Positions 1 to 6,065 of a stretch of DNA of 64,000 nucleotides are shown here, one piece after another. The position numbers and the translations under genes were made by a program. Position 1 is the first letter of the stretch. The number at the start of each line of letters is the position of its first letter. Under the pieces are notes generated by a model. It was given only the letters and a program-made list of their open reading frames with translations, searched no databases and was not told the DNA's origin. Origin of the DNA: Escherichia phage vB_EcoP_HC-25922; sequence record OQ555404.1; one strand, given 5' to 3'.

Positions 1-59
1 AGCCTTTCATCCCTTCTCAACATGAGTAGAAGAAATACGGGTGGGAAATCACTGGATAG

Positions 60-130
60 ATATACATGGGTAAATAATCAATGTGTAATATCAATGGGTA
101 GGTTAAAAATAGGTAGGTATGCCACTGATA
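60..130. repeat. short direct repeats containing ATGGGTA / AGGTAGGT units
   Basis: Repeated ATGGGTA at about 66 and 94 and AGGTAGG at 101-125 in a non-coding leader. Confidence 0.35.
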
Positions 131-340
131 GCAGGTAGGGCAAGGCTTAGAGCTTAAAGGCTGATTGATTTCCTAAAGGCAATTGCATCGGTAATAACCC
201 TTTTTTAAATGAGGACTCCCCCTTTTTAGGAAACGCGCTCGGAGAGGCTAGGTCCATCCGGTCAAATCAGAATTTTAAACTCTTATATATAACTATATAC
301 CCCAACGTTAGTTGTGGATTTAAGATTAAGGAACAACTTT

Positions 341-505
341 ATGTGGAAATTGAAGATGATTATCAGGCAGATTAAATGTAATCACGAGTACTACCCAATC
401 CGGATATCGAGAGGTGATGAACGGTTACATGCTTATTACAAGAGTACATGGAGGTGTGCAGATTGTGGTAAGGTTAAGAATAGTAAATGGGTGGATAGAC
501 TATAG
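341..505 (+). CDS. small Cys-rich (zinc-ribbon-like) protein
   Basis: ORF with AAGGA RBS about 9 nt upstream of ATG 341; cysteine pairs CNHEY...CADCGK; the longer GTG 314 start lacks an RBS. Confidence 0.35.
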   Translation: MWKLKMIIRQIKCNHEYYPIRISRGDERLHAYYKSTWRCADCGKVKNSKWVDRL

Positions 506-716
506 AGAGTATGGGGTGGCCTTAACATGACTGAAGAAGATTACGGTAGCTTCACCGAAGAGGATTATGAAGTAGAGTGGAGACATGCTCATGGGTATGA
601 GGTGGCCTTTATGGGTATGCCTTTACATCAGCGTACATAGGTTAGTACACGGGTGGGCCTTTAGATGAGTACGCCTTTATGGGTTGATCACTCTCGTTTA
701 TCAGAGGAGAACAAAT
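505..716. repeat. degenerate direct repeat array (GGTGGCCTTTA / ATGGGTATG units)
   Basis: At least five related units at 511-530, 591-627 and 648-690 in a non-coding stretch upstream of the packaging genes. Confidence 0.5.
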
Positions 717-965
717 ATGTTTCTAGACTTTTTATCAGAGGTACTTCCCTACTTCCGCACTGAGAAATGTGCATTTGTATTTGATGAAGGGGAGGAGGTG
801 TTGAGTTGTTTGGGTAGATTAGTAGACCTAGATGACGATGAAGATTTTGATGCTACGATGGATATTAGTTCATTGGGCTGGTTGTACATGAGATGCTTTG
901 TAAGTTACAAGGCTGAAACGTTTAAAGATTATCGCTATAGCGCTGAAGGAGAGAATGATGAATAA
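717..965 (+). CDS. hypothetical acidic protein
   Basis: ORF in frame with track ORF 684..965; AGGAG RBS immediately upstream of ATG 717. Confidence 0.4.
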   Translation: MFLDFLSEVLPYFRTEKCAFVFDEGEEVLSCLGRLVDLDDDEDFDATMDISSLGWLYMRCFVSYKAETFKDYRYSAEGENDE

Positions 966-1614
966 CAATATGACAGGAACTACTACACTGAATGCAATCT
1001 ATGAGAACATGGGATGTAAAGGCGAGGTTGTTTACAATGGCAATCTCCGTCCTTTATCAGAGGACATTTTCTATCTGAATCGTGTTCATGAAACTACTGG
1101 AGGTAAATCCCGAGTTGAGATGGTAAAACAACTGGCTCATGGTTCTGTGTACGGTTATGCTCCTTCAACCCGTGAAATATGGGAAGGTTTGATTCCTCGT
1201 ACAGAAGCTAAAGATGTGAAAGACTATTTCACTGTAGCAAAAGAAGTTAAACGTAAGTGTCCATCCAATTTAGAAGTTGTTCCGTATGTAGCTGACAAAC
1301 ATGCACACCTACCGGACTATGCCCGTGAGATGATTGAGATGATTGAAGAAGCCGAGTATGAAGCTCTGAATAATTATTTAAATTCAAAAGATCAATGGTC
1401 ACGTAATGTAGTAATTGATGAAGAAGGTAATGAAGTAGTTACGTGGGTACATGCTAGTGAACAAGCTCTGGACCCCGAGCTTGAAGAATACAAAAAATTT
1501 TTGGCGTCCTCTTCTTTTGAGGTAGAGAATGACAAATCTATTCCAGTTGGCTGGGAAGGTGAAACTGTAGCTCTCCAGACTTTGTTCAACCTACACGTAG
1601 GTGATGTAGATTAA
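955..1614 (+). CDS. hypothetical protein
   Basis: 219-aa ORF with GGAGAG RBS, followed by a hairpin terminator. Confidence 0.5.
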   Translation: MMNNNMTGTTTLNAIYENMGCKGEVVYNGNLRPLSEDIFYLNRVHETTGGKSRVEMVKQLAHGSVYGYAPSTREIWEGLIPRTEAKDVKDYFTVAKEVKRKCPSNLEVVPYVADKHAHLPDYAREMIEMIEEAEYEALNNYLNSKDQWSRNVVIDEEGNEVVTWVHASEQALDPELEEYKKFLASSSFEVENDKSIPVGWEGETVALQTLFNLHVGDVD

Positions 1615-1625
1615 TAAAAGGCGTT

Positions 1626-1652
1626 GCCTCCTCTCGTGGGAGGCTTTTTGTT
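1626..1652 (+). terminator. intrinsic terminator (GCCTCC hairpin plus T5)
   Basis: Stem gcctcc/ggaggc with short loop followed by ttttt directly after the stop at 1614. Confidence 0.55.
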
Positions 1653-1679
1653 ATAACGATAATGTAGAAGGAGTATAAG

Positions 1680-2147
1680 ATGTTTGGAGAAAAAGGAGAA
1701 CTCACGCCTGCACAGGTAGCTGAGATTACAGGAAGACTGCCCGGAGTAACGGAAGAACTTGAATCCAAGGGCATGGAACCAAGCACAGGGAAGTTCACTA
1801 AAGGTAATAAATTTGGACGTCCCAAAGGTAGTAGAGGTAAATTGACACAGCTCATGCTCGATCGTGTTGCTGCTAGTCATCTGTCTCCCGATGAAGTGTT
1901 GATTCAGATTTATGAAGATCCAAGTATTCCACCCGATCTTAGATTCAAGGCTGCAAGTAAAGTCGCTGATCTGGTATATCCTAAGGCAGCTTCTGTTGAG
2001 GTTAAGATTGAGGAAGAGAATGTAATCAATGAAGAATCACTGAACGCACAGATTCGAGACTTCTTGACTGGTGCACTGAAAGTGGATGTGCTACCTCCAG
2101 AGGACTCTGAGGACGCTGAAAAGGAGGAGGAAGCGGACGAGAGTTAA
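1680..2147 (+). CDS. hypothetical protein, possible terminase small subunit
   Basis: 155-aa ORF with GAAGGAG RBS; basic GRPKGSRGK segment and acidic C-terminus; sits immediately upstream of the large terminase. Position-based inference only. Confidence 0.3.
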   Translation: MFGEKGELTPAQVAEITGRLPGVTEELESKGMEPSTGKFTKGNKFGRPKGSRGKLTQLMLDRVAASHLSPDEVLIQIYEDPSIPPDLRFKAASKVADLVYPKAASVEVKIEEENVINEESLNAQIRDFLTGALKVDVLPPEDSEDAEKEEEADES

Positions 2148-2201
2148 TAGGAATAGAGGGGAGGGTTCTTTTCGCGAGGGATCTCTCCCTTTTTTATTTT
2201 A

Positions 2202-3756
2202 TTGGAGGAATATATGTCATTAGATAAAGAGATTTACGAAGCTCTAACTGGAGATAAATTGAGTGTAGAGGAAAAGAAAGCTTTGCTCAATATGTTAAAA
2301 GAAAGGGACCAGTGGAGAAAATATAATAAGATGTTAGCTTTTAAAGCTTACGACTTTCAGAAGAAATTCTATGCAGCAGGGTTGAAGCATCGCTTCCGAT
2401 TCCTGTGTGCAGCTAACCGCGTTGGTAAATCTTACAGCGAGGCATACGAGTTTGCTTGTCATGTCACAGGTCGCTATCCAACTTGGTGGACAGGTTACAG
2501 ATTTAATCGACCCATATTGGCTTGGGCGGTAGGGATTACAGGGGACTCTACAAGAAAGGTATTGCAAAAGGAATTGTTTGGAACACCTATCGGAAAGGAT
2601 ATGAATCTAATAGGAACAGGTGTTATTCCTCGTGATGCTATCGTATTGGACACGATAGAACGAGATGGGAACAAATTACAGATTGTACAAATTAAGCATC
2701 AAAACGCGAGAGGCGAGTTTGACGGTTTAAGTACATTAGAGTTCCGTTCTACCCAACAGGGTGAACATACATTGATGGGTGCTACAGTTGATTATATTTG
2801 GCTGGACGAAGAAGATCCATATGAATCTATGGCAATCTTCTCTCAGTGCGTAACACGTACACTTACAACTAAAGGTTTAGTTACTATTACAGCTACACCA
2901 GAGAACGGTTTAACAGAGCTGGTGGATAAGTTTATGAAAGGTGAAGGAGATGAGAACACAGGTTCTCTGTATTTCCAGAATGCTTCTTGGTGGGATGCTC
3001 ATGTAGATTTAGGTGGACATATCACTGACCAAGATATTAAAGACATGACTGAAGGTATTCCAACATGGCAGTTAGAGATGCGTTCAAAAGGTATGCCGTT
3101 GCTTGGTTCTGGTTTGATTTATGATGTATCAGATGACATGATTAAGTGTGATCCCTTTGAGATACCTGATACGTGGAAACGTGTTTGTGCTATTGATATT
3201 GGTATTGATCACCCGACAGCCGCTGTTTGGACAGCATATGATGCTAACACTGATACGATTTATGTTTATGACTGCTATAAAGAAGGTGGGTTTACTCCGG
3301 TGTACCATGCACCAGCTATTAATGGTCGTGGTCAGTGGATTCCAGTTATTCTTCCTCACGATGCCGATAATATTGAGAAGGGAAGTGGTTCGTCTGTTGC
3401 TCAATTCTATAAGAATGCAGGGGTTAATGTACAGAGTGATAACCTTCTACAACAAGATTGGAATGGATGGTAAGAAGAACTTCTTTGTAGAGCCGGGAAT
3501 TACTGATATTCGTGAACGTATGATGTCAGGTCGTTTTAAAATCTTTAACATTGCTTCGTGTGCTAAACTCTTTGAAGAGAAAGCTCGCTATCACCGTAAG
3601 GTTGGCAAGATTGTTAAGGAACATGATGACTTGATGGATGCTATGCGATATTCAGCTTGTTCTGTAACACATCGTGGACGTAGTAAGCATGATGCTAGTT
3701 ATGGTAGTTCATCGCTTTATCAAGACAATATTAACAGATGGAATCAGACCTACTAA
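2202..3756 (+). CDS. terminase large subunit; reading frame switches to +1 near 3470
   Basis: Walker A-like AANRVGKS, nuclease-domain motifs CAIDIGIDHPTAAVW and PHDA in frame 0 (2202..3473), then the C-terminal KEHDDLMDAMRY motif only in the +1 frame (to 3756). Confidence 0.75.
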
Positions 3757-3761
3757 AAATA

Positions 3762-3785
3762 GGGGAGGCTTTGTCCTCCCTTTAG
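3762..3785 (+). terminator. hairpin, possible terminator
   Basis: gggagg-ctttgt-cctccc stem-loop followed by ttt. Confidence 0.4.
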
Positions 3786-3821
3786 TAGTTCCTTCCAAGC
3801 TATCACCGAGGGAGAGATTAG

Positions 3822-6065
3822 ATGGCTAAGAAGAAATTTAGTGAAGATGTTTTGGATGAATTACGCGTTGACCTTCAACGTCGATTCAATTATGCTCAAG
3901 GTTATGTAGACTTAGCTGTAAAAGGCTATGCTCGTGAGGCTTGGGAATACTTCTATGGGAACCTTCCTGCTCCAGTTACTGCTGGTAGCTCTAGTTGGGT
4001 AGACCGTACGGTATGGGAATCAGTGAATGGTACGCTCCAAGATATCATTAATGTGTTCTGTTCTGGTGACGAAGCGGTAACTTTCGTAGCCGATAACCAA
4101 GAAGATAGTGATGCTGCTGACGTAGCCACTAAACTTGTCAACCAAATTTTGTTACGTGATAATCCGGGATACAATATTATCTCTTCAGCGGCACAAGAGT
4201 GTCTGGTTACACGTAACTCTTTTATTAAATATTATTGGGATGAACAAACTTCTACCCAAACAGAAGAAGCAGAGGGTGTTCCTCCGGAAGCTTTGGCTGC
4301 ATATGTCCAAGGTTTAGAAGCTGGTGGGCTTCAAGATTTAGAAATCTTTACCACTGACAACGAAGATGGTACAGTGGATGTTAAAGTAACTTACAAACAA
4401 ACAGTAAAACGCGTTAAAGTAGAATATGTTCCTTCAGAACAGATTTTTGTTGACGAACATGCTACCTCTTTTGCAGATGCTCAGTATTTCTGTCATCGCA
4501 CACGTAAATCTAAAGAAGATCTGGTTGCTATGGGCTTCCCTAAAGATGAAATTGAAGCTTTTAATGACTGGACTGATACAATGGACACCACTCAATCTAC
4601 TGTTGCATGGTCACGTACTGACTGGCGTCAGGATATAGATTCAGATATCGGTGTAGACACTGATGATATCGCTTCTATGGTTTGGGTTTACGAGCATTAC
4701 ATCCGTACTGGTGTACTGGATAAGAATAAAGAAGCAAAACTCTATCAAGTTATTCAAGCAGGTGAGCATATTCTCAGTTGTGAAGAAGTAACTAGCATTC
4801 CTTTTGTAACATTCTGCCCTTATCCTATTCCGGGTTCATTCTATGGACAATCTGTTTATGATATCACCAAAGATATTCAGGATTTGCGTACCGCTTTGGT
4901 TCGTGGTTATATCGATAACGTAAACAATGCTAACTATGGTCGTTATAAGGCTCTTGTAGGTGCTTATGACCGTCGTTCTCTACTGGATAACCGTCCGGGT
5001 GGTGTAGTAGAAATGGAGCGTCAGGATGCGATTGATCTCTTCCCTTACCACAATCTACCTCAGGGTATTGATGGCTTACTAGGAATGTCAGATGAGTTGA
5101 AAGAGACTCGTACTGGTGTTACTAAGCTTGGTATGGGCATTAACCCTGATGTGTTTAAGAATGATAACGCATATGCAACTGTTGGATTGATGATGAATGC
5201 TGCTCAGAACCGTCTCCGTATGGTCTGTCGTAACATTGCTCACAACGGTATGGTTGAATTGATGCGTGGTATTTATAATTTAGTCCGAGAAAATGGTGAG
5301 GTTCCTTTACAAGTACAAACCCCTCGTGGTATGGTTCAGGTTCATCCTAAACAACTGCCTGCTCGTCACAATCTACAAGTTGTTGTAGCTATCTCTCCTA
5401 GCGAGAAATCAGAACGTGCCCAGAAACTAATCAGCCTGAAGCAATTGATTGCTGCTGATGCTCAGTTAGCACCTCTGTTTACTCTGGAGCAAGATCGTTA
5501 CATGACTGCACAGATCTTCGAGTTGATGGGAATTAAAGATACTCACAAATACTTAATGCCTCTGGAACAATATCAACCGCCAGAACCTTCTCCGATGGAA
5601 ATCCTCCAGCTTGAGATGACTAAAGCACAGGTTGAGAACGTACAGGCTTCTTCTCAGAAGATGATTGCTGATGCATTCGACCAGCGTGAACGTACTACGT
5701 TTGAACAGCAGAAAGCTGCGGACGAGTTCAGCTTACGTCAAGAAGAACTGCAATTTAAGCAAGAGAATGCTGCTGATCAGATGACTTTGGAGAATCGTAA
5801 AGAAGACAACAGTGCTACACTTGAACAGGCTAAGCACAAGTTGGCTCTGCTCCAGCAACAGGTCCGTCAGTATGAATCTGTACTTAAAGAATTGCAGATG
5901 ACTCTTAATCATCAGGTCGATGTTGAGAAAGTTGCAAATCAGGCTAAAATTCAAGATAAGACTTTGGAACTCCAAAAGAAAGAAGCAAATGAAACTAAGA
6001 AAGAACAGCAAAGTTCAATCAAAGATTCACGGATTCCTAACCGTCGTCTTGGTAGTAGAAAATAA
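3822..6065 (+). CDS. portal protein (putative)
   Basis: 747-aa ORF directly after the terminase with GAGGGAG RBS; size, position and charged coiled-coil C-terminus fit a portal. Confidence 0.55.
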   Translation: MAKKKFSEDVLDELRVDLQRRFNYAQGYVDLAVKGYAREAWEYFYGNLPAPVTAGSSSWVDRTVWESVNGTLQDIINVFCSGDEAVTFVADNQEDSDAADVATKLVNQILLRDNPGYNIISSAAQECLVTRNSFIKYYWDEQTSTQTEEAEGVPPEALAAYVQGLEAGGLQDLEIFTTDNEDGTVDVKVTYKQTVKRVKVEYVPSEQIFVDEHATSFADAQYFCHRTRKSKEDLVAMGFPKDEIEAFNDWTDTMDTTQSTVAWSRTDWRQDIDSDIGVDTDDIASMVWVYEHYIRTGVLDKNKEAKLYQVIQAGEHILSCEEVTSIPFVTFCPYPIPGSFYGQSVYDITKDIQDLRTALVRGYIDNVNNANYGRYKALVGAYDRRSLLDNRPGGVVEMERQDAIDLFPYHNLPQGIDGLLGMSDELKETRTGVTKLGMGINPDVFKNDNAYATVGLMMNAAQNRLRMVCRNIAHNGMVELMRGIYNLVRENGEVPLQVQTPRGMVQVHPKQLPARHNLQVVVAISPSEKSERAQKLISLKQLIAADAQLAPLFTLEQDRYMTAQIFELMGIKDTHKYLMPLEQYQPPEPSPMEILQLEMTKAQVENVQASSQKMIADAFDQRERTTFEQQKAADEFSLRQEELQFKQENAADQMTLENRKEDNSATLEQAKHKLALLQQQVRQYESVLKELQMTLNHQVDVEKVANQAKIQDKTLELQKKEANETKKEQQSSIKDSRIPNRRLGSRK

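What the first reader, a model, noticed from the sequence alone, without database searches (positions are those of the whole stretch)
60..716. Iteron-like degenerate direct repeats upstream of the packaging genes
The leader carries ATGGGTA / AGGTAGG repeats (60-130) and an array of at least five related units at 511-690 (for example gtatggggtggccttaaca, atgggtatgaggtggccttt, atgggtatgcctttaca, cacgggtgggcctttagatg, agtacgcctttatgggttga) in a non-coding gap. Tandem degenerate repeats at this position are typical of packaging recognition sites, replication origins or regulator-binding arrays.
Basis: seen in the sequence. Interest (0 to 1): 0.45.

Follow-up and report, generated by a model that had tools for sequence, protein, structure and literature searches.

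The report
Repeat array beside phage genome end
The repeats are real: a phiEco32-type coliphage carries five same-direction copies of a 15-base two-part motif just inside its terminal repeat. The same motif core sits at the sites where the genome ends are cut, so the array is most likely a docking site for the DNA-packaging enzyme.

Summary
The window starts at the left end of a phiEco32-like podophage (97.7% identical to vB_EcoP_SU7). The repeats at 60-130 are real but lie inside the direct terminal repeat (DTR, about 1-249).

The 511-690 array is real and sharper than described. It holds five same-strand copies of a bipartite unit, RTGR-N4-S-CCTTWA, at 511, 597, 611, 649 and 665. No comparable cluster occurs elsewhere in the 64 kb.

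Fifteen relatives carry 4-7 units at the same place. The motif is conserved while the spacers, copy number and reading frame vary.

Phages from other families (TerL about 60% identical) have the same kind of array upstream of the same small-terminase-like gene, with a lineage-specific second half.

In 12 relatives the motif core plus a CAGNG element directly precedes the left-end cut (…GCCTTAA…CAGTGCT|AGCC). The DTR's right edge has the same layout.

The region is not simply non-coding: it holds a zinc-ribbon-like ORF and an optional acidic mini-ORF.

Best reading, at moderate confidence: a terminase recognition array, comparable to phage lambda's terminase-binding site cosB or T7's SRL array. 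I found no description of it in the papers I could search. Binding has not been tested.

The parts
1..249 (.). Left direct terminal repeat (DTR), with boundaries placed by homology
   Evidence: Window position 1 equals record position 1 of SU7 and NC-B. The repeats are identical at both ends of the records for phiEco32 (193 bp), 4E8 (206 bp) and NC-B (250 bp). All three end at the same alignment column, which is window 249: …GGAGAGGCT|AGGTCC. The window does not include the right genome end, so this phage's own DTR could not be checked.
37..139 (+). Short repeats inside the DTR: AYGGGT at 37, 66 and 94; AGGTAGG at 111 and 133; decayed copies near 81 and 110
Evidence: Relatives have AYGGGK clusters in their DTRs and 300-450 bp before the right DTR. 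P59 has ACTATG repeats upstream of its putative DTR end.
174..188 (-). One inverted copy of the array unit inside the DTR (ATGCAATTGCCTTTA). A second bare core, GCCTTTA, lies at 155-161 on the - strand.
   Evidence: PWM score 13.1, the best hit in 64 kb outside the array, though within chance range on its own. The equivalent inverted unit scores 20.0 in the phiEco32 DTR, 12.8 in Paul and 13.1 in PAS59. It is absent from 4E8 and LAMP.
198..252 (+). Right-edge module of the DTR: CCCTTTTTTA…CCCCCTTTTTA, then 13 nt, then GAGAGG, then CT|AG
   Evidence: This is the most conserved stretch of the DTR. The C/T-tract pair was noted for SU10 in PMC4281155. Its layout (core-like element, spacer, CAGNG-like element, CT|AG) matches the left-end junctions.
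341..505 (+). Gene 1: a small ORF (54 aa) with a C-x-H…C-x-x-C pattern, which I read by eye as zinc-ribbon-like. In relatives its stop codon lies in the first array unit.
   Evidence: (phrog_7696, unknown function). No homologue was found in the fetched loci of distant phages that still have arrays.
491..505 (+). Decayed unit 0 (GTGGATAGACTATAG). Relatives have GTGGATAGGCCTTAA here.
511..525 (+). Array unit 1: ATGGGGTGGCCTTAA
   Evidence: PWM score 22.2.
527..640 (+). Optional acidic mini-ORF (MTEEDYGSFTEEDYEVEW…) inserted into the array
   Evidence: Absent from SU7, NC-B and 4E8. Present in TH43, phiEco32, MN03 and Bas89, with 6-7 synonymous against 9 non-synonymous codon differences over 25 codons. 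It accounts for most of the extra length relative to SU7.
597..625 (+). Array units 2 and 3: ATGAGGTGGCCTTTA and ATGGGTATGCCTTTA
   Evidence: PWM scores 23.2 and 20.2.
626..638 (+). Motif B copy (CATCAGCGTACAT), directly after unit 3
   Evidence: Conserved in most relatives. Related TCAG[CT]GTA and CAGTGTA motifs follow units in distant lineages.
649..679 (+). Array units 4 and 5: ACGGGTGGGCCTTTA and ATGAGTACGCCTTTA
   Evidence: PWM scores 14.3 and 20.8.
697..707 (+). TTTATCAGAGG, one of three exact copies. The others are at 731-741 and 1053-1063 (the last reads CCTTTATCAGAGG).
   Evidence: This 11-mer occurs only at these three places in 64 kb. It resembles the junction sequence TTATCAG[T/G]GCT|AG.
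717..1614 (+). Genes 4 (717-965) and 5 (955-1614), of unknown function, lying between the array and the packaging genes
   Evidence: Neither was found in the fetched loci of distant lineages that keep the array.
1626..1668 (+). Terminator-like hairpin plus T-run (1626-1654), then a late-promoter-like TAATGTAGA (1660-1668)
   Evidence: The consensus for promoters read by the phage sigma factor gp36 is AATGTA / tAATGTAtA, taken from PMC12276001 and PMC4281155.
1680..2147 (+). Small-terminase-like gene (gene 6 homologue), carrying an invariant GRPKGSRxK motif
   Evidence: The family profile's two best PDB hits are the PaP3 and NV1 small terminases (6w7t, 7joq), at a weak E of about 0.005. The gene lies next to terL in distant relatives. 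PMC9965538 assigns it as TerS. The motif is close to HMGA1 AT-hook 2, GRPKGSKNK, from PDB 2ezd.
2214..3756 (+). Large terminase gene, split in this window by a 1-nt insertion near 3440

Best explanation
The 511-679 array is a cluster of double-stranded-DNA binding sites for the phage's packaging machinery. The likeliest binder is the small-terminase-like protein encoded at 1680-2147.

Each unit has two short contact points about one helical turn apart: RTGR, and S-CCTTWA. Five to seven units, all pointing the same way, sit just inside the left terminal repeat.

Proposed mechanism (inferred, not shown). On replicated concatemers, an oligomer of the small terminase loads on this array. It reads the A/T part of each unit in the minor groove with its AT-hook-like GRPKGSRxK arm. 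This brings the large terminase to the nearby junction. The junction carries single copies of the same core plus a CAGNG element, immediately before the two cuts (…CT|AG…) that bound the terminal repeat. The array would thus mark phage DNA for packaging and fix where, and perhaps in which direction, packaging starts.

Shown here: the array, its motif structure, its conservation, its link to the terminase genes, and the shared motifs at the cut sites.

Inferred: which protein binds, and that binding serves packaging.
For: 1. Clustering. There are five high-scoring units within 170 bp. The only other hit at or above score 12 in the 64 kb is the inverted unit in the DTR. In the complete SU7 genome, every hit scoring 17 or more lies in the array (seven units); the rest score 10-14, including the weak DTR copy.

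2. Selection on the motif rather than on the sequence. Among 74 distinct units from 16 phages, ATG at positions -9 to -7, S at -1 and CCTTWA are fixed, while the 4-5 nt between them are free. Copy number is 4-7 and spacing is mostly 14 or 16 nt. Units fall in all three reading frames, so this is not a peptide repeat.

3. The degeneracy is strand-symmetric: position +4 is 47 T / 27 A and position -1 is 51 G / 21 C. This is expected for reading duplex DNA, not RNA. RNA folding of the array is unremarkable (z = -0.42 and +0.89), and no Rfam family matches the array.

4. Association with terS. Phages of other taxa all have same-strand arrays of ATGR-N5-xxxxxx units upstream of the homologous terS-like gene. 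These are Grimontviridae (P59, SeKF_80), Aquaneticvirus (APT65), PJNS034 and IMG/VR contigs L034-L036. The second half differs by lineage: CATCAA, GCATGA or CCCTGAA. In contig L052 (TerS 76% identical), three CCTTWA units lie 69-115 nt before the terS start. More distant terS-like loci show none, which serves as an empirical control. Genes 1, 4 and 5 were not found in the fetched loci of those distant phages, so they are unlikely to encode the binder.

5. Link to the genome ends. In 12 relatives the left-end junction reads [SCCTTWA or GCCTGTA] - 0 to 24 nt - CAG[T/A/G]G.CT | RGCCTYTC. The left end itself starts AGCCTTTC. The DTR's right edge has the same layout: CCCCCTTTTTA - 13 nt - GAGAGG - CT|AG. 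A DTR-end-like element lies 90-150 bp before the first unit in P59, APT65 and L035.

6. The candidate binder has an invariant GRPKGSRxK motif. This is close to a solved minor-groove-binding AT-hook.
Against: - No binding, footprinting or genetic data exist. The termini of this particular phage are inferred by homology.
- In this genus the array is 260-440 bp from the DTR's right edge and about 510-680 bp from the left cut. That is further than lambda's terminase-binding site cosB lies from its cut site cosN.
- A gene (341-505), two more genes and a terminator separate the array from the cut sites and from terS.
- The array lies in a transcribed early leader on the sense strand, so a role at the RNA level is not excluded.
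- The TerS assignment is weak: PDB profile hits have E about 0.005, the AlphaFold model has pLDDT 66, and no fold match was found.
- TerS sequence similarity does not track the motif type cleanly. The APT65 protein resembles the CATCAA group but its array is GCATGA.
- The AT-hook resemblance rests on 7-8 of 9 residues.
- The PWM was trained on orthologous units, so the window scores are not independent.
Confidence: 0.5

Rival explanations
1. The array is an operator or roadblock for transcription control. A phage or host DNA-binding regulator would bind it to control the left-end early operon (genes 1-5) or nearby promoters read by the phage sigma factor.
For: - The array lies inside the early left transcript, between a conserved promoter-like region (about 260-293) and gene 4.
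- SU10's left-end genes are described as sigma-70 driven and early.
- Motif B (CAGTGTA, TCAGCGTA) resembles the -10 element AATGTA recognised by the phage sigma factor gp36. It often follows a unit, and in relatives it occurs on both strands.
- In L052 a TAATGTAAA motif immediately precedes three units.
Against: - The genes flanking the array differ completely between lineages, while the array stays with the DTR end and terS.
- Other gp36-type promoter matches in the window carry no units.
- Promoter control does not explain why the same core sits at both cut sites.
- No regulator gene is conserved next to the array.
Confidence: 0.2
2. The array acts at the RNA or translation level. The units would work in the mRNA leader as binding sites for a translational regulator, as restart signals, or as tiny ORFs. 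Read in frame, a unit is ATG-xxx-xxS-CCT-TAA, which translates as M-x-x-P-stop.
For: - All units are on the sense strand of transcripts leading to gene 4, or to terS in relatives.
- An ATG is fixed 9 nt before CC, in frame with CCT-TWA. When W is A, the unit ends in a stop codon.
- Several units contain GAGGTGG or GGGTGG, which resemble a Shine-Dalgarno ribosome-binding sequence.
Against: - About two-thirds of units have TTA rather than TAA, so most are not closed mini-ORFs.
- Most unit ATGs follow CCTTTA, not a ribosome-binding site.
- The W and S degeneracy fits duplex DNA.
- A good inverted copy sits in the DTR.
- Core copies lie at the cut sites in untranslated DNA.
- There is no RNA structure signal.
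Confidence: 0.1
3. The array is a replication origin, with iterons bound by an initiator.
For: - The repeats are direct and lie near a genome end.
- The origin of this phage group is unknown.
Against: - No initiator-like gene is adjacent. Genes 1, 4 and 5 have no such hits.
- Units are 15 nt at 14/16-nt spacing, so neighbours are out of helical phase.
- No DnaA-box or origin-type feature was noticed, though no formal search was made.
- The replication genes lie more than 30 kb away on the other arm.
- The motif's presence at the cut sites is unexplained by this model.
Confidence: 0.07
4. The units have no dedicated function. They would be recombination linkers or decaying duplications that mark where small genes are swapped in and out.
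For: - The region is highly mosaic. The mini-ORF is inserted between units in some phages only, and copy number varies between 97%-identical genomes.
Against: - Neutral duplicates would not keep ATG, S and CCTTWA fixed while their spacers diverge.
- They would not be retained, with a changed second half, across phage families.
Confidence: 0.08

Closest known systems
Phage T7 SRL array (heptamer repeats just inside the left terminal repeat)
   Same: Checked here on NC_001604. The T7 terminal repeat (1-160, a length I recall from memory; the record excerpt does not annotate it) holds 3 copies of CCTAAAG. Directly inside it, at 175-361, are 11 same-strand C[CA]TAAAG units at 13-bp spacing, followed by the phage promoter phiOL at 405. 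The layout matches: a few copies in the repeat, a one-direction array just inside it, and a phage-type promoter-like element beside it. Both phages have short DTRs and package from concatemers.
   Different: - The T7 unit is a simple heptamer at regular 13-bp spacing. Here the unit is a bipartite 15-mer at 14/16-nt and irregular spacing.
- T7 has a mirror array (SRR) before the right repeat (from memory). Here only one core copy plus a different repeat (AYGGGK) sits there.
- The copy in this DTR is inverted.
- A gene separates the array from the DTR in this genus.
- The sequences are unrelated.
- To my knowledge the role of SRL is itself unsettled (from memory).
Lambda cosB (R1-R3 sites bound by the small terminase gpNu1 next to cosN)
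   Same: Several copies of a short site for the small terminase lie on one side of the cut site and next to the terminase genes, positioning the nuclease. The facts about cosB are from memory; only the analogy is proposed.
   Different: - Lambda makes 12-nt cohesive ends, not a duplicated terminal repeat.
- The lambda R sites are 16 bp, three in number, lie within about 150 bp of the cut, and work with the host protein IHF.
- gpNu1 uses a winged helix-turn-helix, with no sign of an AT-hook.
- Binding has not been tested here.
Repeat-based pac sites: SPP1 pacL/pacR boxes and the hexamer repeats of the P1 pac site
   Same: Short repeated boxes flank the first cut and are recognised by the small terminase (from memory).
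   Different: Those phages package by the headful mechanism, giving permuted ends. Their boxes are fewer and lie within or beside terS. Here the ends are fixed and the array has 5-7 oriented bipartite units.
Plasmid and phage origin iterons
   Same: Direct repeats of a protein-binding motif in one orientation.
   Different: No initiator gene is nearby, the units are shorter, the spacing is not in helical phase, and the motif is shared with the terminase cut sites.

Membership tests
Terminase recognition site (pac / cosB type) | Lies next to the site where terminase cuts the concatemer | tested here: inconclusive
   The array begins 262 bp inside the homology-defined right edge of the DTR and about 510 bp from the left cut. 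In relatives it lies 90-150 bp from the DTR-end element. This is nearby rather than adjacent, and the termini of this phage were not mapped.
Terminase recognition site (pac / cosB type) | Contains repeated short motifs shared with, or flanking, the cut site | tested here: met
   There are five oriented units. The same core plus a CAGNG element sits directly before the left-end cut in 12 relatives. A T-run variant sits at the right edge of the DTR.
Terminase recognition site (pac / cosB type) | Stays with the terminase genes through evolution | tested here: met
   Arrays of the same design lie upstream of homologous terS-like genes in at least 7 further lineages, while the other neighbouring genes change.
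Terminase recognition site (pac / cosB type) | Is bound specifically by the small terminase | not testable with these tools
   Only indirect evidence: an AT-hook-like invariant motif in the candidate protein and W/S degeneracy in the site.
Terminase recognition site (pac / cosB type) | Is required for packaging or for correct ends | not testable with these tools
   Needs phage genetics or a transduction assay.
T7-type arrays flanking the terminal repeat (SRL/SRR) | A same-strand short-unit array directly inside the left terminal repeat, with copies also inside the repeat | tested here: inconclusive
   The array is same-strand and inside the DTR. However, it is 262 bp away with a gene in between, and the only DTR copy is inverted and absent from 4E8 and LAMP. 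The T7 layout was verified.
T7-type arrays flanking the terminal repeat (SRL/SRR) | A matching array before the right terminal repeat | tested here: not met
   The right ends of phiEco32, 4E8 and NC-B show no unit array. They have only one weak core at the junction and a separate AYGGGK cluster. The right end of this phage is outside the window.
Replication-origin iterons | An adjacent gene for the cognate initiator | tested here: not met
   Genes 1, 4 and 5 give no initiator or replication family hits. The replication genes lie more than 30 kb away.
Replication-origin iterons | Repeats phased on one face of the helix beside an AT-rich unwinding element and host-factor boxes | tested here: inconclusive
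   The 14/16-nt spacing is out of phase with a 10.5-bp helical turn. No formal search for an unwinding element or DnaA boxes was made.
Structured cis-regulatory RNA | Stable or conserved secondary structure, or a match to a known RNA family | tested here: not met
   Folding z-scores are -0.42 and +0.89. No Rfam match lies in 1-2150.

The most novel reading that the evidence does not exclude
Elongated-head (C3) podophages that make short terminal repeats but have no RNA polymerase of their own may use a packaging signal of a new design. It would have two parts. The first is an oriented array of bipartite sites that loads a ring of small terminase through AT-hook-like arms. The second is single 'core + CAGNG + CT|AG' modules that specify the two staggered cuts bounding the repeat. 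The variable second half of the unit would set the packaging specificity of each lineage.
Probability: 0.3. Interest if true: 0.65.

Novelty: new variant of a known kind. Interest (0 to 1): 0.5.

Why it matters
How phiEco32-type phages cut and package their genomes is described as unknown in the group's own literature (PMC4281155). They make T7-like terminal repeats but lack the phage RNA polymerase that T7 needs for this step.

This work supplies concrete candidate signals, conserved across several phage families:
- an oriented bipartite array;
- a short module at both cut sites;
- a candidate binding protein with a recognisable DNA-binding motif.

Together these make the question directly testable by gel shift, footprinting, transduction assays and targeted mutation.

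Two practical points follow. These phages are being developed for therapy, and knowing the packaging signal bears on transduction risk and on engineering them. The lineage-specific second half of the unit would also be a natural system for studying how packaging specificity evolves.

Tried and rejected
- Tandem Repeats Finder found nothing. The array is a motif cluster, not a regular tandem repeat.
- GCCTTWA is not enriched over the whole window (17 found, 15.6 expected). Only its clustering is significant.
- A peptide-repeat reading (PLWV, AFMG) was rejected because units occupy all three reading frames.
- Structured RNA was rejected on folding z-scores and the lack of any Rfam match in the array.
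- The sigma-70 consensus scan found no + strand promoter in 1-2300. The conserved 260-293 region looks like a weak promoter by eye only.
- Gene 1's product as the binder was rejected because it was not found in the fetched loci of distant lineages that keep arrays.
- Confirming TerS by structure failed. The AlphaFold model had pLDDT 66 and Foldseek found nothing below E = 2. BLASTP against LUZ24 TerS found nothing, and hhalign gave only 14.6% probability. The only positive evidence is the two weak top PDB profile hits to small terminases.
- No clean co-variation was found between overall TerS similarity and motif type (APT65 does not fit).
- Pfam does not call an AT-hook in the protein, and a PDB search with the TerS motif peptide found nothing.
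- Literature searches for a prior description of the array (SU7, SU10, YF01 and Privateer papers) and for T7 SRL/SRR papers found nothing usable. Pavlova 2012 is not held.
- A search for 'core…CAGNG.CT|RG' modules in distant lineages gave a single hit, in P59 and its near-identical contig L032. It could not be interpreted without mapped ends.
- LUZ24 and Vibrio phage KIT05 (TerL about 40% identical) have other repeats or none of this type.
Full report
**What the window is**

Bases 1-4000 match Escherichia phage vB_EcoP_SU7 at 97.7% identity, and about 100 other phiEco32-like podophages (Gordonclarkvirinae) at lower identity. Window position 1 coincides with position 1 of the SU7, NC-B and UKE3 records.

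The ORFs downstream are:
- a 155-aa gene at 1680-2147;
- the large terminase at 2214-3756;
- the portal gene at 3822-6065.

**Terminal repeats**

This group has short direct terminal repeats. They are 193 bp in phiEco32, SU10, YF01 and Paul, by experiment or read analysis (PMC4281155, PMC9965538).

I confirmed identical repeats at both ends of the phiEco32 (193 bp), 4E8 (206 bp) and NC-B (250 bp) records. In the multiple alignment all three end at the same column, which is window 249: …GGAGAGGCT|AGGTCC.

The first part of the finding (60-130) therefore lies inside the terminal repeat. The second part (511-690) lies 260-440 bp inside the genome from the repeat's right edge. The window stops at 64 kb, so this phage's own right end could not be examined.

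**Checking the observation**

Tandem Repeats Finder reports nothing.

GCCTTWA is at chance frequency across the window (17 found, 15.6 expected). However, five + strand copies lie in 519-679, where 0.02 would be expected. AYGGGK is similarly clustered in 1-249 and 480-700. These p-values are post hoc. The independent test is that 15 relatives carry the same array at the same place.

**Anatomy of the unit**

I aligned 74 distinct units from 16 phages on CCTTWA. This shows a bipartite unit, RTGR-N4-S-CCTTWA:
- ATG sits at a fixed distance (-9 to -7) with information content of 0.9, 1.2 and 1.6 bits;
- S at -1 carries 1.2 bits;
- the 4-5 positions between the two halves carry almost none.

The two halves are about one helical turn apart. 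Units follow each other mostly at 16 and 14 nt, for example 16, 14, 16, 14, 38, 16 in SU7.

The window has units at 511, 597, 611, 649 and 665, and a decayed one at 491. Their CC positions fall in all three reading frames, so the repeat is not a peptide repeat.

Position +4 is T or A (47/27) and position -1 is G or C (51/21). Degeneracy of this strand-symmetric kind is what reading of duplex DNA produces, especially through the minor groove. It is not expected for RNA recognition (my inference).

A PWM built from the relatives scores the five window units at 14-23. The next best hit in 64 kb (13.1) is an inverted unit inside the DTR at 174-188. That score is within the range reached by chance. 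However, phiEco32 has an inverted unit scoring 20.0 at the equivalent place, and Paul, NC-B and PAS59 have weaker ones. 4E8 and LAMP have none.

In the whole SU7 genome every hit scoring 17 or more lies in the array. The remaining hits score 10-14, and one of them is the DTR copy.

**The region is not a plain non-coding gap**

ORF 341-505 is conserved in all 16 phages. It has a C-x-H…C-x-x-C pattern, which I read by eye as zinc-ribbon-like. In relatives its stop codon lies in the first unit.

The window also carries a mini-ORF from 527 (MTEEDYGSFTEEDYEVEW…). SU7, NC-B and 4E8 lack it. TH43, phiEco32, MN03 and Bas89 have it, with many synonymous differences, so it is probably a real small gene inserted between units.

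Genes 4 and 5 (717-1614), a terminator-like hairpin (1626-1654) and a late-promoter-like TAATGTAGA (1660-1668) lie between the array and the terS-like gene.

**Distant relatives**

I used the large terminase and the 155-aa protein to reach other taxa:
- Proteus phage P59 and Salmonella phage SeKF_80 (Grimontviridae);
- Aeromonas phage APT65 (Aquaneticvirus);
- Escherichia phage PJNS034;
- several IMG/VR and Logan contigs.

In these, TerL is about 60% identical and the 155-aa protein 42-76% identical. An unbiased repeat finder recovered arrays of the same design, on the same strand, upstream of the homologous gene:

| Lineage | Unit |
|---|---|
| P59 | TATGACATGGCATCAA |
| SeKF_80 | ATGAnnnnCCATCWA |
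| L034 | ATsACCTCCCATCAA |
| PJNS034 | TATGAGGTGGCATGA |
| APT65 | ATGACCynGCATGA |
| L035 | TATGAnTrGsCATGW |
| L036 | TATGACCyTCCCTGAA |

The first half of the unit and its spacing are kept. The second half is lineage-specific.

In L052 (76% identical protein) three CCTTWA units lie 69-115 nt before the gene's start codon. terS-like loci at 27-42% identity show nothing comparable, which serves as an empirical control.

Genes 1, 4 and 5 and the mini-ORF have no homologues in the fetched stretches of the distant loci. The array therefore does not depend on them.

An element like the DTR end (CCCyTTT…CCCCCTTTTTA) lies 90-150 bp before the first unit in P59, APT65 and L035.

The conserved order is therefore: terminal repeat, array, small-terminase-like gene, large terminase, portal. 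Gordonclarkvirinae have extra genes inserted on both sides of the array.

**Link to the cut sites**

In 12 relatives where the junction between the right unique DNA and the repeat can be read, the sequence just before the left end takes one form:

[SCCTTWA or GCCTGTA] - 0 to 24 nt - CAG[T/A/G]G.CT | RGCCTYTC

Examples are CCCCTTAACAGAGGCT|AGCC (Bas87), GCCTGTACAGTGCT|AGCC (SU7, phiEco32) and GCCTTAACTAGATTGTTATCAGTGCT|AGCC (NC-B). The DNA further upstream is unrelated between these phages.

The left end itself begins AGCCTTTC, a near copy of the core. The right edge of the repeat has the same layout: CCCCCTTTTTA - 13 nt - GAGAGG - CT|AGG, at window 217-252.

Inside the window, core-plus-CAGNG modules recur at:
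- 620-638;
- 674-707;
- 726-741;
- 1051-1063.

The 11-mer TTTATCAGAGG occurs three times, at 697, 731 and 1053, and nowhere else in 64 kb.

The array thus shares its motifs with both places where the ends are made. This is the strongest argument for a packaging role.

**The candidate binder**

A profile of the 155-aa family gives the PaP3 and NV1 small terminases (6w7t, 7joq) as its two best PDB hits, though only at E about 0.005. PMC9965538 reports the same assignment by profile comparison.

BLASTP against LUZ24 TerS, a monomer AlphaFold model (pLDDT 66) and Foldseek added nothing.

The family has an invariant G-R-P-K-G-S-R-x-K motif. The second AT-hook of HMGA1, solved on DNA (PDB 2ezd: …PRGRPKGSKNK…), shares 7-8 of these 9 residues. 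An AT-hook reads A/T runs in the minor groove, which would fit the TTWA part of the unit. This is an inference from a short motif, and Pfam does not call it.

**Rival explanations**

- *Transcription control* is the main rival. The array lies in the early left transcript, and motif B (CAGTGTA, TCAGCGTA) resembles the AATGTA element read by the phage sigma factor. This does not explain the motif at the cut sites, or why the array persists while its neighbouring genes change.
- *RNA or translation roles* are weakened by the W/S degeneracy, the inverted DTR copy, the lack of structure and the fact that most units are not closed mini-ORFs.
- *Replication origin* has no initiator gene and no helical phasing.
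- *Neutral duplication* cannot explain motif-specific conservation across families.

**Comparison with known systems**

The nearest layout is the left end of T7. I checked it directly. There are three CCTAAAG copies in the first 160 bp (the terminal repeat, by my memory of the literature). Eleven same-strand C[CA]TAAAG units follow at 13-bp spacing just inside it (175-361), and then promoter phiOL.

The differences are:
- the bipartite unit;
- the irregular spacing;
- no mirror array at the right end;
- the inverted DTR copy;
- the intervening gene.

In function the proposal resembles lambda's cosB or the SPP1 and P1 pac boxes (facts from memory). None of the defining biochemical features could be tested here.

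**Novelty and verdict**

None of the papers on SU7, SU10, YF01 or Privateer mentions the array. SU10's authors note only the C/T-tract pair in the repeat, and they call the packaging mechanism unknown.

My verdict has five parts:
- The packaging interpretation is the best supported, at about 0.5.
- The 'non-coding' and 'iteron' labels are imprecise.
- The 60-130 repeats are a separate family inside the DTR.
- I rate the finding a new variant of a known kind, of moderate interest.

Noticed in passing
window 3430-3475 (terL, 2214-3756): The large terminase gene is split. A 1-nt insertion near 3440 (GAGTGATAACC against SU7's GAGTGAGACC) shifts the frame, giving ORFs 2202-3473 and 3148-3756. This may be a sequencing error, a defective genome or a recoding site.
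   Followed up: partly
L009 (NC-B) 2313-2420; L008 (4E8) 2411-2500; L007 (phiEco32) 2459-2522: About 300-450 bp before the right terminal repeat, relatives carry 3-6 AYGGGK units. In NC-B and 4E8 these are followed by TATAATGTAA, which resembles both a sigma-70 -10 element and the gp36 promoter motif, and which points towards the repeat. This recalls T7's phiOR. It lies outside this window.
   Followed up: partly
L022 (Proteus phage P59) 2736-2755; also 1850-2180 and 2243-2290: P59 has TTTTATCAGAGACT|AGAATAGG about 60 nt before its terS-like gene. This matches the left-end cut consensus of the phiEco32 group. P59 also has about 15 ACTATG repeats upstream of a DTR-end-like element (…GCGTGCT|AGCATCC). 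Privateer-type phages are reported to have 'novel ends', and these may be the cut sites.
   Followed up: no
window 955-1614: Gene 5 is labelled 'ABC transporter' in RefSeq and PHROGs (phrog_12176), but it has no Pfam support. The name looks like a propagated annotation. In L052 a longer homologue carries four or five CCTTTA cores within its first 70 codons.
   Followed up: partly
SU7 record MZ342906 ends; PAS59 record OQ921332 (L012 1-275): The 'terminal repeats' in these two records do not match the family's DTR boundaries: 53 bp in SU7, and 275 bp spanning the junction in PAS59. They look like assembly overlaps. By homology the true repeat would be about 250 bp.
   Followed up: partly
window 77-90: TCAATGTGTAATATC inside the DTR resembles the gp36 promoter motif tAATGTAtA by eye. 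No formal match was made.
   Followed up: no
window 255-293: GGTCAAATCAGAATTTTAAACTCTTATATATAAC, just past the DTR, is nearly invariant in all relatives and in L052. It is probably the promoter of the left early operon (4E8 annotates a promoter here), but the sigma-70 consensus scan did not call it.
   Followed up: partly
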